A stretch of DNA of 64,000 nt from a virus, in IMG/VR virus record IMGVR_UViG_3300025585_000039, positions 16,004 to 80,003 of that record. One strand, given 5' to 3'. Shown here piece after piece: positions 1,124-13,908 of this stretch (its first letter is position 1; the number at the start of each line of letters is the position of its first letter). A program made the translations under genes and the position numbers. Under the pieces are notes generated by a model, which made no database searches, was not told where the DNA came from, and was given only the letters and a program-made list of their open reading frames with translations.

Positions 1124-1353
1124 TACATCTTATCCCTAACAAGCATAACAATTGCCCCATTATCTTCTAGTGCTTTTTTAACTCTAATCATATACTCAAC
1201 AGCAGAAATCTTATCATCATGTCCAAGTCTCATGAACTGCTCAGTATTAGCCTTGACTGTTAAAAAATTTTCATTATCAATTATTTGCACACTAAAATTT
1301 TTAGGCGGTGTCAAGGATCTAAATGCTTTCTGCATTGACAAAGTATATGTCAT
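1123..1353 (-). CDS. hypothetical protein
   Basis: ORF; likely start MTYTLSM with ATGA-type overlap. Confidence 0.65.
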   Translation of the reverse strand: MTYTLSMQKAFRSLTPPKNFSVQIIDNENFLTVKANTEQFMRLGHDDKISAVEYMIRVKKALEDNGAIVMLVRDKM

Positions 1354-12002: not shown

Positions 12003-12721
12003 TTAAATTCTTTCTTTGCTCTATATTTATTTTTATAAGAGTGAACAAAATTACTTCTAAGTTTAAATCTTTGTTTTGTTAATTCTGCTGATGATTCAGA
12101 AGTTGGAACTAACTCCATCTTCCAATCTTCACGTTTAAATGGGATGACTTGAACAAGAGGTGTTCCTTGTTTAATTACACCCTTAAAATCTTTTTCAATA
12201 AGAATAGATAGGTGACCATCTGTAATAAACTTATCTGTGTCAATGAATCCCTGTATTGCTAAGAAAGGTAAGTGATCTTTGTGCAAGGGATGCATGAAAA
12301 GTGTGCTATAACCTTCTGGTGTTTTAACTGCCCAGAATGGCATAACTCTAAACAATTGTTTGTGATACTTATTAGTATCGATTGGATAATGATCGTATTG
12401 TTCTGGAGCATGTACAGCAAACATATCATTAACAAATTGCTTCATCGTCAACGGAACTGAGAACTCAATCTTTGCTGGGTTTGTTGCATCAATATAAACA
12501 TCGCATGGAAACGGAATGACATACCCTGCTGTCATAGCATCAAAAATTGGCATACAACGTTTAATAGTTGATGATAATTCTCCCTTTGGAAGGAACTCGT
12601 CATCCCTTACAGATGCTGGCTGTCTCTTATACCAGTCTGGTGTATTTTTGATTGCTGGTGTTGGTTCTGGTGCGAAAAATGTTGTTCTTTCGCTAAACGG
12701 ATAAAACCGAATGATGTTCAT
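11999..12721 (-). CDS. DUF6065-like protein, paralog of 11232..12002
   Basis: PDWY, TIKRCMP..DAM.AGY, TPEGYS, GTPLVQVIPFKRE. Confidence 0.55.
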   Translation of the reverse strand: MNIIRFYPFSERTTFFAPEPTPAIKNTPDWYKRQPASVRDDEFLPKGELSSTIKRCMPIFDAMTAGYVIPFPCDVYIDATNPAKIEFSVPLTMKQFVNDMFAVHAPEQYDHYPIDTNKYHKQLFRVMPFWAVKTPEGYSTLFMHPLHKDHLPFLAIQGFIDTDKFITDGHLSILIEKDFKGVIKQGTPLVQVIPFKREDWKMELVPTSESSAELTKQRFKLRSNFVHSYKNKYRAKKEFK

Positions 12722-13382
12722 AGAACTCCTTTACTCTATTAACAATTATATCATCTGCCTCAAAAACCATATCAAACATTGGCTGTTGTCTTTTAATTTT
12801 GCCAAAATTCTCATTGATCATATGGGGTCCAACTTTTTTAAAGGCAAATGTAACAAATGCTGGCTCAATATATTTTTCATCGCCAGTGGTTTTTGTATAA
12901 CTATATTCTGTTGGATTAATATAGAATGGTGAGGCAGCGTCTGGTTTTTCAAACCTCACATTGATGTTTTCATCTATAAACCACGGAACATAAAACTTAT
13001 AAAAAGAATTAAAACAATCATCTGTCAAATCAAAGGTTTCTTTGGTTTGATAGTATTGCCTTATCCATGGACGATCTAAATTAAAAAATGCCCTAGTGTG
13101 TTGTCTTACTAGCAAAAAGAATTCAGCATGATTTCCCTGCCTAAGTCTAACTGTATTGTTTTCAATCGATACAAGTTTTGGTGCTGGGTATAAATTCCTT
13201 ACATAGTTGTTGATTGGCTTGATTATTGAGTCTTTATATTCACTCTGCATGACTTTAGAATATGTAATCCAATTTATATTTACCCTGGATTTTTCACTAA
13301 TATCAGAAAAAACTGGGTCCCATGTTTCTTGCCAAATATGAAAATTATATTTTTGATCTGTTAGGATTTCTGGTCCTTGCAT
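12693..13382 (-). CDS. hypothetical protein
   Basis: Long ORF; promoter upstream at 13404. Confidence 0.7.
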   Translation of the reverse strand: MQGPEILTDQKYNFHIWQETWDPVFSDISEKSRVNINWITYSKVMQSEYKDSIIKPINNYVRNLYPAPKLVSIENNTVRLRQGNHAEFFLLVRQHTRAFFNLDRPWIRQYYQTKETFDLTDDCFNSFYKFYVPWFIDENINVRFEKPDAASPFYINPTEYSYTKTTGDEKYIEPAFVTFAFKKVGPHMINENFGKIKRQQPMFDMVFEADDIIVNRVKEFYEHHSVLSV

Positions 13383-13403
13383 TACAAAACCTTTCGACAA
13401 CTC

Positions 13404-13412
13404 ATTATACCA
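13404..13412 (-). promoter_or_regulatory. extended -10 promoter TGGTATAAT
   Basis: Perfect motif between the tRNA cluster and the gene starting at 13382. Confidence 0.6.
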
Positions 13413-13425
13413 ACACATTCATCAG

Positions 13426-13497
13426 AGCCTCCTGTAGGATTTGAACCTACGACAACTCGCTTACAAGGCGAGTACTCTACCCCTGAGTTAAGGAGGC
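13426..13497 (-). tRNA. tRNA-Thr(UGU)
   Basis: Cloverleaf: GCCTCCT/AGGAGGC acceptor, CTCGC-CTTGTAA-GCGAG anticodon arm, GTTCAAATC T loop; no CCA. Confidence 0.93.
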
Positions 13498-13498
13498 G

Positions 13499-13570
13499 TA
13501 GCCCTAGAGAGAATTGAACTCTCGTTTCCAGATTGAAAATCTGATGTCCTAACCACTAGACGATAGGGCC
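13499..13570 (-). tRNA. tRNA-Glu(UUC)
   Basis: GGCCCTA/TAGGGCT acceptor, TCAGA-TTTTCAA-TCTGG anticodon arm, GTTCAATTC. Confidence 0.92.
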
Positions 13571-13574
13571 TAAG

Positions 13575-13648
13575 CGATCCCGAACGGACTTGAACCGTCG
13601 ACCTCTTCCGTGACAGGGAAGCGTTCTAACCAACTGAACTACGGGACC
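13575..13648 (-). tRNA. tRNA-Asp(GUC)
   Basis: GGTCCCG/CGGGATC acceptor, CTTCC-CTGTCAC-GGAAG anticodon arm, G discriminator. Confidence 0.93.
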
Positions 13649-13652
13649 TCAG

Positions 13653-13723
13653 AGCGAATAGGGAGAATCGAACTCCCACCTTCTGCTTGGAAGGCAGAGG
13701 CACTACCATTATGCAACATTCGC
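13653..13723 (-). tRNA. tRNA-Gly(UCC)
   Basis: GCGAATG/TATTCGC acceptor, TCTGC-CTTCCAA-GCAGA anticodon arm, GTTCGATTC. Confidence 0.93.
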
Positions 13724-13835
13724 AGTGTCTAACTTTGTTGTTGCGTCCTAGTTAGACTTAGGCACAGAGGCAGTGCACTGCATGTGATGATGTGTGACCG
13801 ACACTTTCGTGTTACAGGGACAAACATACGCTATG
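13724..13835 (-). ncRNA. candidate structured ncRNA between tRNA-Asn and tRNA-Gly
   Basis: ACAC-GAAA-GTGT hairpin, GCAC/GTGC hairpin, 8-bp GTCTAACT/AGTTAGAC stem crossing a GTCC/GGAC stem; other spacers in the cluster are only 1-4 nt. Confidence 0.45.
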
Positions 13836-13908
13836 CTGGTCTGGCAGGTCTCGATCCTGCGACATCTCGATTAACAGTCGAGTGTTCTACCAACTGAACT
13901 ACAGACCA
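13836..13908 (-). tRNA. tRNA-Asn(GUU) with atypical T loop
   Basis: TGGTCTG/CAGACCA acceptor, CTCGA-CTGTTAA-TCGAG anticodon arm, T arm GCAGG-ATCGAGA-CCTGC. Confidence 0.88.

What the first reader, a model, noticed from the sequence alone, without database searches (positions are those of the whole stretch)
13724..13835. Candidate novel pseudoknotted ncRNA embedded in the tRNA array
Seen: the other tRNA spacers are 1-4 nt, but tRNA-Asn and tRNA-Gly are separated by about 110 nt that is GC-richer than the genome. On the transcribed strand it reads ...UGUUUGUCC-CUGUA-ACAC[GAAA]GUGU-...-GCAC[UGCCUCU]GUGC-CUAA-GUCUAACU-A-GGACGCAACAACAA-AGUUAGAC. It has a GNRA-capped hairpin, a second hairpin, and a perfect 8-bp helix whose loop (GGAC) can pair with the 5' GUCC, giving an H-type pseudoknot with an A-rich connecting strand. 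Known: phage tRNA arrays can host theta ribozymes and large RNAs such as GOLLD. I could not fit this sequence to HDV/theta or hammerhead topology. Inference: a new structured RNA, released as a discrete species by normal tRNA processing on either side.
Basis: partly seen in the sequence, partly recalled or inferred. Interest (0 to 1): 0.72.

Follow-up and report, generated by a model that had tools for sequence, protein, structure and literature searches.

The report
New structured RNA among phage tRNAs
The 111-base gap between two tRNA genes of this uncultured lake phage encodes a small folded RNA; related phages carry the same RNA between other tRNAs, with mutations that keep its base pairs, it matches no catalogued RNA family, and its function is unknown.

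Summary
On the minus strand, 111 nt (13724-13834, 46% GC) separate tRNA-Asn from tRNA-Gly; the other tRNA gaps are 0-3 nt.

The first tests argued against a structured RNA. The folding z-score was about -0.2. There was no Rfam or BLAST hit, and 14 syntenic relatives lack the stretch.

A covariance model built from this one sequence then found homologues that BLAST had missed. There are now six copies in three sequence lineages. Each lies inside a phage tRNA array on the tRNA strand, in five different tRNA contexts. Each ends 0-1 nt before a tRNA 5' end.

On a sequence-only MAFFT alignment, 8 of 22 pairs carry compensatory changes (0/500 shuffles reach this; slid controls give 0-1). The closest copy differs at 10 positions, none in the 46 paired bases. 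No reading frame is conserved. No copy matches Rfam 15 or resembles a tRNA.

Two fold details need correcting. The second hairpin is a different, two-part stem with a UGCA loop. The proposed pseudoknot is only partly upheld.

Release by RNase P and tRNA 3' processing is inferred, not shown. The function is unknown. Related arrays also hold manA RNAs and several other unnamed covarying RNA classes.

The parts
13724..13834 (-). Whole element 'X', 111 nt, between tRNA-Asn and tRNA-Gly
   Evidence: Self-hit of models R1 and R2. Homologues in L122, L132/L133, L088 and L123.
13823..13834 (-). 5' tail (nt 1-12) holding GCGUA (13827-13831), invariant in all copies. It could pair with ACGC in the H3 loop; this is untested.
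   Evidence: Segmentation of the five distinct sequences. The linker after GCGUA varies in sequence and length.
13820..13822 (-). P1 5' strand UGU (nt 13-15)
   Evidence: RNAalifold on MAFFT alignment A4. Two of its three pairs show compensatory change.
13813..13819 (-). J1, CCCUGUA (nt 16-22), invariant. Its CC(C) may pair with GG(G) of the H3 loop.
   Evidence: Invariance is partly by ascertainment for L122 and L123, but not for L088 or L132.
13801..13812 (-). H1: ACAC-GAAA-GUGU (nt 23-34)
   Evidence: Two pairs with compensatory change and one C-G to U-G change. The loop is GAAA, or AUU in L088/L123.
13794..13800 (-). J2, CGGUCAC (nt 35-41; consensus CGRUCAY). With J1 it forms a conserved 7x7 internal loop.
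13791..13793 (-). P1 3' strand ACA (nt 42-44)
13763..13786 (-). H2 (nt 49-72): outer stem CACA/UGUG, U and CUC internal loop, inner stem GCAG/CUGC, loop UGCA. It contains the 12-nt DNA palindrome GCAGTGCACTGC.
   Evidence: Three of four inner pairs change on both sides in L132 on the MAFFT alignment. The outer stem CACA/UGUG corresponds to UAUA/UAUA in L132. L088 and L123 have a short 5-6 bp hairpin at this place.
13727..13757 (-). H3 (nt 78-108): 8-bp helix GUCUAACU/AGUUAGAC with a 15-nt loop AGGACGCAACAACAA (13735-13749)
   Evidence: U-A to C-G compensatory change and G-C to G-U change. The loop core GGACGCA and the A-rich 3' part are conserved.
13724..13726 (-). 3-nt tail ACU, immediately before the tRNA-Gly 5' end (the expected RNase P site)
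   Evidence: The same 0-1 nt abutment to a tRNA is seen in all homologues.
13835..13908 (-). tRNA-Asn(gtt), upstream neighbour, no encoded CCA
13652..13723 (-). tRNA-Gly(tcc), downstream neighbour. It is 72/72 identical to the tRNA-Gly of L036, L048, L057 and L072.
13425..13648 (-). Rest of the array: tRNA-Asp, tRNA-Glu and tRNA-Thr, with 3, 3 and 0 nt gaps

Best explanation
The spacer encodes a member of a previously uncatalogued family of structured non-coding RNAs of about 100-113 nt. I call it X. It lives inside the tRNA arrays of uncultured freshwater phages.

Shown here:
- X is conserved in three sequence lineages.
- X is always on the tRNA strand and always fills an inter-tRNA slot.
- X has a fold of four helices kept by compensatory mutations. 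P1 (3 bp) closes a conserved 7x7 internal loop, CCCUGUA/CGRUCAY. H1 is a 4-bp hairpin, GNRA-capped in most copies. H2 is a two-part hairpin with a UGCA loop. H3 is an 8-bp helix with a conserved GGACGCA...A-rich loop.

Inferred:
- X is co-transcribed with the tRNAs.
- RNase P, cutting at the 5' end of the next tRNA (0-1 nt after X's 3-nt tail), makes its 3' end.
- 3' maturation of the preceding CCA-less tRNA (RNase Z type) makes its 5' end.
- The excised RNA, with an 8-bp hairpin at its 3' terminus, persists and acts in trans. The invariant internal loop and H3 loop would then form a tertiary or pseudoknotted site for a protein or small molecule.

What X binds or does is not known. It is dispensable for many relatives and moves between arrays as a cassette.
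For: Homology:
- Model R1, built from the window sequence alone, hit L088 7661-7759 over its full length at 48.8 bits, E 3e-8, in 0.9 Mb.
- L122 scored 123.5 bits and L123 43.5 bits.
- L132 and L133 scored 71.3 bits, E 2.5e-13, with R2, which was built without them.

Context: Asn|X|Gly, Gly|X|Tyr, Trp|X|Glu, Met|166-nt element + X|Arg, and Met|166-nt element + X|Ile. X is always on the tRNA strand and always ends 0-1 nt before a tRNA.

Structure:
- On MAFFT alignment A4, 97% of cells are paired and 8 of 22 pairs have changes on both sides. 0/500 shuffles reach this, and slid controls give 0-1.
- The G-U pairs in H1 and H3 work only on the tRNA-sense strand.
- Window versus L122: 10 differences, none in the 46 paired nt (P about 0.005).
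- All three frames are interrupted in L132 and L088, so there is no conserved ORF.

Not a known RNA:
- No Rfam 15 match for any copy, even at E<=10 for the window.
- No tRNA remnant: ARAGORN and RF00005 are negative, and the best local alignment to 254 tRNAs is below the shuffled mean.

Population: near-identical copies occur in freshwater metagenome runs (8 runs hold at least half of the sampled words; the 24 listed runs come from 17 studies, but the low-share ones may hold only the tRNA parts). One variant was seen in the spacer, and it equals the L122 state.

Setting: 78 of 408 adjacent tRNA pairs in related arrays have 30-450 nt spacers. Many of these are covarying RNA classes, including manA RNA above its Rfam threshold.
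Against: - There are only three independent lineages, so each covarying pair rests on one or two events.
- Two of the three retrieval patterns required GTCCCTGTA, GGACGCA or part of H3. Invariance of those blocks is therefore partly by construction.
- Single-sequence folding is no better than shuffles (z -0.16 and -0.28), and the covariation-supported structure is 5.5 kcal/mol above the MFE.
- X is absent from all 14 syntenic relatives found through the neighbouring gene. Only 5 of the 100 other related viral records searched with R2 hold it. It is therefore not essential.
- There are no expression data. The one RNA run laid gave no cover of the spacer, which proves nothing.
- Processing, stability and trans action are all inferred.
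- In L088 and L123 the 5' side of X abuts another RNA element, not a tRNA. There, tRNA processing alone cannot define its 5' end.
Confidence: 0.7

Rival explanations
1. X is a cis-acting processing or insulator module. Its folded structure sits directly upstream of a tRNA. It helps the neighbouring pre-tRNAs fold independently or presents the RNase P site, and is then degraded. It has no role of its own.
For: Every copy ends 0-1 nt before a tRNA 5' end, even where the 5' side is not a tRNA. Other inter-tRNA elements in related arrays also end in a hairpin 3-5 nt before the next tRNA.
Against: 233 of 408 adjacent tRNA pairs in these arrays have gaps of 10 nt or less and need no such module. The downstream tRNA differs in every context (Gly, Tyr, Glu, Arg, Ile). 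Invariant internal-loop and hairpin-loop sequences are more than an insulator hairpin would need.
Confidence: 0.12
2. X is a self-cleaving ribozyme that matures tRNA ends, functionally like the HDV-like theta ribozymes found 3' of phage tRNAs.
For: In three of five contexts X starts 1-3 nt after a tRNA 3' end, the position reported for theta ribozymes (PMC10879173). X has invariant unpaired blocks and possible pseudoknots.
Against: No HDV-like, hammerhead, twister, pistol or hatchet model of Rfam 15 matches at E<=10. The helix order does not fit the HDV-like nested double pseudoknot. In L088 and L123 X follows another RNA element, not a tRNA.
Confidence: 0.05
3. X is a tRNA-derived relic: an old tRNA gene that decayed or was remodelled.
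For: GUCCCUG-UA-(4-bp hairpin) loosely resembles the acceptor 5' strand, U8-A9 and D arm. CU(A/G)GGAC could pair with GUCCCUG like an acceptor stem. Model R2 gives weak alignments (15-17 bits) to a tRNA-Leu preceded by AUUGCGUAG.
Against: ARAGORN and RF00005 find nothing, even at E<=10. The best local alignment to 254 distinct tRNAs scores 19, against a shuffled mean of 20.9. There is no T arm. The covariation in P1 conflicts with an acceptor-like pairing of G14.
Confidence: 0.04
4. X is a non-functional spacer or recombination scar that was carried in together with tRNA-Gly. The helices are chance, or a DNA-level feature.
For: The folding z-score is about 0. X plus tRNA-Gly behaves as a 185-nt insertion or deletion relative to Asn-Asp arrays. 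23 of 35 inter-tRNA spacer clusters were singletons.
Against: Full-length homologues occur in five unrelated tRNA contexts, with compensatory changes, strand-specific G-U pairs and no substitutions in stems. The L122 copy is about 91% identical, although no other similarity to the window was found in that 8-kb locus.
Confidence: 0.03

Closest known systems
Bacteriophage T4 RNAC and RNAD (the small RNAs of the T4 tRNA region)
   Same: [quoted passage not shown]
   Different: X belongs to uncultured freshwater phages. It occupies a full inter-tRNA slot flush with both neighbours and moves between slots. No expression data exist for X.
manA RNA motif (Rfam RF01745)
   Same: It is a structured RNA of phages and marine bacteria. 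In arrays related to this one it sits in the same kind of inter-tRNA slot: L030 90-271 between Asn and Gly, and L064 and L072 between Gly and Asp, at 66-76 bits against a gathering score of 55.2.
   Different: X has no similarity to manA by cmscan or nhmmer. It is half the size with a different fold. manA was described as a likely cis-regulatory or riboswitch element in 5' UTRs (PMC2864571).
Theta ribozymes (minimal HDV-like ribozymes next to phage tRNAs)
   Same: They are small structured RNAs placed directly beside tRNA genes in Caudoviricetes, proposed to act in tRNA 3'-trailer processing (PMC10879173).
   Different: X matches no HDV-like model and its helix order does not fit the fold. Theta ribozymes were reported from gut phages of Bacteroidota and Bacillota. 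Catalysis by X is untested.
GOLLD and ROOL large RNAs (from my own knowledge, not checked here)
   Same: They are phage-associated structured RNAs that often lie next to tRNA genes, with unknown function.
   Different: They are several hundred nucleotides long. Rfam models for them gave no match in the window.

Membership tests
Any Rfam 15 family (4227 models) | Covariance-model score at or near the family threshold | tested here: not met
   No match in the spacer at gathering thresholds or at E<=10 with lax filters. No match over the homologues in L088, L122, L123 or L132 at E<=1.
tRNA or tRNA pseudogene | Cloverleaf detectable by ARAGORN or RF00005 | tested here: not met
   five tRNAs were found and none lies in 13724-13834.
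tRNA or tRNA pseudogene | Residual sequence similarity to tRNAs of related arrays | tested here: not met
   Best local score against 254 distinct tRNAs is 19, versus 20.9 +/- 2.1 for shuffles.
HDV-like / theta ribozyme | Nested double-pseudoknot fold (P1, P1.1, P2, P3, P4) recognised by HDV-like models | tested here: not met
   No HDV-family hit at E<=10. The helix order P1-H1-P1'-H2-H3 differs.
HDV-like / theta ribozyme | Position immediately 3' of a tRNA | tested here: inconclusive
   True in the window, L122 and L132/L133. In L088 and L123 X follows a 166-nt RNA element.
HDV-like / theta ribozyme | Self-cleavage at its own 5' end | not testable with these tools
   Needs an in vitro transcription and cleavage assay.
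manA RNA (RF01745) | Match to the manA model or to the manA copies of related arrays | tested here: not met
   cmscan negative. nhmmer with a profile of three array-borne manA copies gave no hit at E<=100.
Small RNAs embedded in phage tRNA clusters (T4 RNAC/RNAD type) | Encoded within a tRNA gene cluster on the tRNA strand | tested here: met
   All six copies.
Small RNAs embedded in phage tRNA clusters (T4 RNAC/RNAD type) | Accumulates as a discrete stable RNA during infection | not testable with these tools
   The only RNA run laid was held as contigs and gave no usable cover.
   C16-C17 with G87-G88 is invariant, and a third pair is gained in L088/L123. G14-C90 is broken in L132, and G14 and U15 covary with C43 and A42 in P1. 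An alternative pairing, GCGU (nt 4-7) with ACGC (nt 89-92), is equally invariant.
Protein-coding small ORF (33 codons, nt 8-109) | Reading frame conserved in homologues | tested here: not met
   The start codon is lost in L122, and there are stops in all three frames in L132 and L088.

The most novel reading that the evidence does not exclude
X may be the first recognised member of a new functional class of RNA. In this reading, the invariant internal loop (CCCUGUA/CGRUCAY) and the H3 loop (GGACGCA) fold into a pseudoknotted binding or catalytic site. Freshwater phages would then use tRNA arrays as an expression and processing platform for a whole set of trans-acting structured RNAs: X, manA and at least six other unnamed covarying classes. 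The ends of these RNAs would be cut precisely by RNase P and RNase Z. X itself could be a decoy or inhibitor of a host defence or RNA-processing protein, an aptamer, or a self-processing ribozyme.
Probability: 0.12. Interest if true: 0.85.

Novelty: new variant of a known kind. Interest (0 to 1): 0.62.

Why it matters
Small RNAs in phage tRNA clusters have been known since T4 (RNAC and RNAD) and remain unexplained. X is a compact, well-delimited new family with a defined fold. It changes its tRNA neighbours from phage to phage, so it behaves as an independent module rather than a spacer.

Related freshwater phage arrays also hold manA RNAs and several unnamed covarying RNA classes in the same slots. 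This has two consequences:
- tRNA arrays look like general launch pads for structured RNAs whose ends are made by the tRNA-processing enzymes.
- For manA, the accepted reading as a 5'-UTR regulator may be incomplete.

X gives a concrete candidate of about 110 nt for biochemical work: end mapping, probing, and pull-down of partners.

There is also a methodological point. A folding z-score, BLAST and synteny all pointed to 'nothing there'. Only a covariance model found the homologues.

Tried and rejected
Searches that found nothing:
- An exact 31-mer of the H3 region in viral contigs and in genome contigs gave no match.
- blastn of the spacer against 50,697 phage records gave only 19-20 nt chance matches.
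- blastn-short against the first 73 loci gave only chance 10-13-mers, including a 13-mer in L056 that I first took for a lead.
- BLAST of the spacer against 50 whole viral records missed the true homologues in the L088 and L094 records. That search was a false negative.
- nhmmer with profiles of six other inter-tRNA element classes gave nothing.
- The neighbouring 254-aa protein found 14 syntenic loci, none with X, and nothing in genome contigs.
- The junction pattern Gly/Asp had no match.

False or uninformative hits:
- Motif hits L124-L128 are random: no model hit and no tRNA context.
- R2 hits of 15-17 bits (L136-L141) are a tRNA-Leu or AT-rich coding DNA.
- Promoter and terminator scans found nothing inside the spacer.

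Readings considered and dropped:
- Decayed tRNA.
- Small ORF.
- A CRISPR-repeat mimic and an anticodon-loop mimic, both considered from the sequence only and dropped because loop sizes and positions do not fit.

RNA evidence: the RNA run X19, held as contigs, showed no cover over 13724-13831. That is no evidence either way.

Tools and limits:
The 89-97% identical relatives seen as proteins P0001 and P0002 could not be fetched.

Full report
**Observation**

The window is part of an 80-kb IMG/VR virus record. Its sequence recurs almost unchanged in freshwater metagenome runs: 8 runs hold at least half of the sampled words, and the 24 listed runs come from 17 studies, though the low-share ones may hold only the tRNA parts.

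On the minus strand, ARAGORN and Rfam agree on five tRNAs:
- Asn 13835-13908
- Gly 13652-13723
- Asp 13574-13648
- Glu 13498-13570
- Thr 13425-13497

The Asn-Gly gap is 111 nt (13724-13834). The other gaps are 3, 3 and 0 nt. The stretch is 46% GC, against roughly 30-40% in the neighbouring genes.

**First tests pointed the other way**

- The MFE of the 111 nt is -24.3 kcal/mol, with z = -0.16 against dinucleotide shuffles and -0.28 in my own run. The opposite strand gives z = 0.04.
- Rfam 15 gave nothing in the spacer at gathering thresholds, nor at E<=10 with lax filters.
- An exact 31-mer, blastn against cultured phages and blastn-short against fetched loci gave only chance matches.
- Fourteen loci that share the neighbouring 254-aa gene lack the stretch. 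Most have tRNA-Asn alone, followed directly by the next gene. One has Asn-Asp-Glu with 1-3 nt gaps.
- Contigs from two lake metagenomes join Asn to Asp and skip 185 nt, that is, the spacer plus tRNA-Gly. Most arrays with the same tRNA-Asn are Asn-Asp.
- A 4-bp pseudoknot pairing such as GUCC/GGAC is expected about three times by chance in this geometry (my estimate).

At that point I put the odds at about 65% that the spacer was a scar.

**Context changed the prior**

A scan with the conserved core of tRNA-Gly brought 52 viral loci. The tRNA-Gly of L036, L048, L057 and L072 is 72/72 identical to the window's. Those arrays have the same order, Asn-Gly-Asp(-Thr), with non-tRNA inserts of 49-192 nt between the tRNAs.

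One class of insert is manA RNA, RF01745, at 66-76 bits against a gathering score of 55.2. It lies in the Asn-Gly slot of L030 and in the Gly-Asp slot of L064 and L072.

Over all fetched loci, 78 of 408 adjacent same-strand tRNA pairs have 30-450 nt spacers. These fall into 35 sequence clusters. So a long insert is unusual in this window but common in this phage group.

The window's spacer matched none of these classes by nhmmer. It matched none of 254 tRNAs beyond chance.

**Finding homologues**

A covariance model built from the window sequence alone, with three hairpins (R1), was run over 0.9 Mb of fetched loci. It gave a full-length hit in L088 7661-7759 at 48.8 bits, E 3e-8. BLAST against that same record had found nothing.

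Motif scans designed from the two sequences added more copies:
- L122 6578-6689, 123.5 bits
- L123 255-353, 43.5 bits
- L132 11852-11964 and the identical L133 5464-5576, at 71.3 bits, E 2.5e-13 with model R2, which did not contain them

The other pattern hits (L124-L128) are random. R2 searches were run over 100 other whole viral records. Five of them hold X, all already known from the scans above. The remaining hits were spurious, at 15-17 bits. There is one copy in the window's own genome.

**Where the copies sit**

| Copy | Context |
|---|---|
| Window | Asn \| X \| Gly |
| L122 | Gly \| X \| Tyr |
| L132 / L133 | Trp \| X \| Glu |
| L088 | Met \| 166-nt element + X \| Arg |
| L123 | Met \| 166-nt element + X \| Ile |

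X is always on the strand of the tRNAs. Its last conserved base is always 0-1 nt before the first base of a tRNA. Where a tRNA precedes it, X starts 1-3 nt after that tRNA.

L132, L133 and the L123 contig share protein genes with the window at 63-81% identity. The 8-kb L122 locus shares nothing detectable with the window except X, which is about 91% identical. X therefore behaves as a discrete module that is reshuffled among arrays.

**The fold**

All copies divide into the same parts:
- a 5' tail with invariant GCGUA, then a variable linker
- P1 5' strand (3 nt)
- invariant CCCUGUA (J1)
- H1, 4 bp, with loop GAAA (AUU in L088/L123)
- CGRUCAY (J2)
- P1 3' strand
- H2
- CCYAA
- H3, 8 bp, with loop R-GGACGCA-(2-4 nt)-AAYAA
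- a 3-nt tail

On the MAFFT alignment A4, made without structural information, the structure P1+H1+H2(inner)+H3 plus a 3-bp loop contact scores as follows:
- 97.1% of cells are paired.
- 8 of 22 pairs have changes on both sides, across 11 cells.
- 0 of 500 shuffles reach any of these values.
- Sliding the partners by 1-3 columns gives 0-1 such pairs.

Per helix:

| Helix | Pairs with compensatory change | Other changes |
|---|---|---|
| P1 | 2 of 3 | - |
| H1 | 2 of 4 | one C-G to U-G |
| H2 inner | 3 of 4 | - |
| H3 | 1 of 8 | one G-C to G-U |

RNAalifold found P1 on its own. The G-U pairs would be A-C mismatches on the other strand, so the tRNA-sense RNA is the folded molecule.

The H2 outer stem is CACA/UGUG in the window and UAUA/UAUA in L132. 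Both have the same CUC bulge and UGCA loop. L088 and L123 carry a shorter hairpin at that place.

Window and L122 differ at 10 positions, and none lies in the 46 paired bases (P about 0.005). The single population variant seen in lake contigs, 13788 T>G, is the L122 state and is unpaired. No reading frame is conserved.

In the window the covariation-supported structure has -18.8 kcal/mol.

- The GNRA hairpin and the 8-bp helix are upheld.
- The hairpin GCAC[UGCCUCU]GUGC is not upheld. The conserved structure uses the same bases differently.
- For the pseudoknot GUCC/GGAC, the two C-G pairs are invariant and L088/L123 gain a third. G14-C90 is lost in L132, where G14A is instead compensated by C43U in P1.
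- A second candidate contact, GCGU (nt 4-7) with ACGC (nt 89-92), is equally invariant. The two contacts could together occupy the whole GGACGC of the loop.
- Nothing here can decide between them. The invariance of GGACGCA, and of GTCCCTGTA for L122 and L123, is partly imposed by the search patterns.

**What it most likely is and does**

Shown: X is a conserved RNA fold of a new family, carried as a module in phage tRNA arrays.

Inferred from the established roles of RNase P (5' ends of tRNAs) and of RNase Z-type 3' maturation of CCA-less precursors:
- The array transcript is cut exactly at both ends of X. tRNA-Asn here has no encoded CCA.
- This releases an RNA of about 110 nt whose 3' terminus is an 8-bp hairpin plus 3 nt. 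That form should resist 3' exonucleases.

What it does then is unknown. The conserved 7x7 internal loop and hairpin loop suggest a tertiary site for a partner. I hold a trans-acting RNA as the most likely reading.

The rivals are:
- a cis-acting processing module (0.12)
- a self-cleaving ribozyme of the theta kind (0.05)
- a tRNA-derived relic (0.04)
- a functionless scar (0.03)

In L088 and L123 the 5' side is another RNA element. There, tRNA processing alone does not define that end. This keeps the ribozyme reading and a composite-RNA reading alive.

**Comparison with known systems**

- manA RNA (PMC2864571) shares the slot in related arrays but not the fold.
- Theta ribozymes (PMC10879173) share the position next to tRNAs but not the fold.
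- No Rfam model matches any copy.

I therefore file X as a new family of a loosely known kind. Its function is open.

**Limits**

- There are three lineages only.
- There are no expression data.
- The acI-actinobacterial host named in earlier notes of this scan was not checked here.

Noticed in passing
L030 90-271 (+), L064 4904-5088 (+), L072 607-791 (-): manA RNAs (RF01745, 66-76 bits against a gathering score of 55.2) lie between tRNA genes (Asn-Gly or Gly-Asp slots), not in a 5' UTR. This fits poorly with the usual cis-regulatory or riboswitch reading of manA.
   Followed up: partly
L072/L057, L048/L036 and L064: the 49-51 nt between tRNA-Asn and tRNA-Gly (e.g. L064 4775-4825): A small element sits in the same slot as X, next to a tRNA-Gly identical to the window's. 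It has a 6-bp stem enclosing a 3-5 bp hairpin. 7 of 9 predicted pairs have compensatory changes among three variants. The blocks UAAUGGU, ACCACUC and AUAAAA are conserved, and UGGU/ACCA could form a pseudoknot. No Rfam match.
   Followed up: partly
Inter-tRNA spacers of L025, L030, L033, L047, L057, L064 (150-172 nt); L079, L096, L088 (about 166 nt after tRNA-Met); L029, L032, L115 (177-180 nt); others: At least six further classes of inter-tRNA elements show many compensatory pairs in RNAalifold (14, 14 and 13 for the three named here). For the classes whose loci were scanned, no Rfam match was found (E<=1, E<=0.01). These phage arrays look like a reservoir of undescribed structured RNAs.
   Followed up: partly
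L079 about 1292-1304 (-), just upstream of tRNA-Leu: The 166-nt element is followed by AAUUGCGUAG-UUUA and then tRNA-Leu. This equals the first 9-10 nt of X plus the last 4 nt of the L123 copy. It may be a footprint of loss, or the target site of gain, of the X core.
   Followed up: no
window 13649-13835, seen in runs X6 and X10: Lake metagenome contigs join tRNA-Asn to tRNA-Asp and skip 185 nt (X plus tRNA-Gly). The joint sequence matches Asn-CCAA-Asp arrays such as L075 and L094, so these contigs are probably relatives rather than variants of the same phage.
   Followed up: partly
window 13404-13413 (-): An extended -10-like promoter TTGGTATAAT lies just downstream of tRNA-Thr. It is conserved with L020 (GTTGGTATAAT...TTGTCGAAAGGTTTTGTAATGCAAG) and probably drives the next gene (12693-13418).
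   Followed up: no
window 13425-13908: The array is a mosaic. tRNA-Asn is 100% identical to that of L020. By eye, Asp and Glu sit as in the Asn-Asp-Glu arrays (L085, L089, L098, whose tRNA-Glu looks closest); my scored tRNA comparison was unreliable. tRNA-Gly is identical to that of a different array type (L036, L048, L057, L072). tRNA-Thr is an extra unit relative to L020.
   Followed up: partly
L013 1015-1417 (also L014, L017, L018): In 113-kb relatives, the 403-nt gap between tRNA-Glu and tRNA-Met holds three tiny ORFs (31, 49 and 35 aa). The first has a strong Shine-Dalgarno sequence, and the third has CxxC and HxxxH motifs. So not all long inter-tRNA gaps are RNAs.
   Followed up: no
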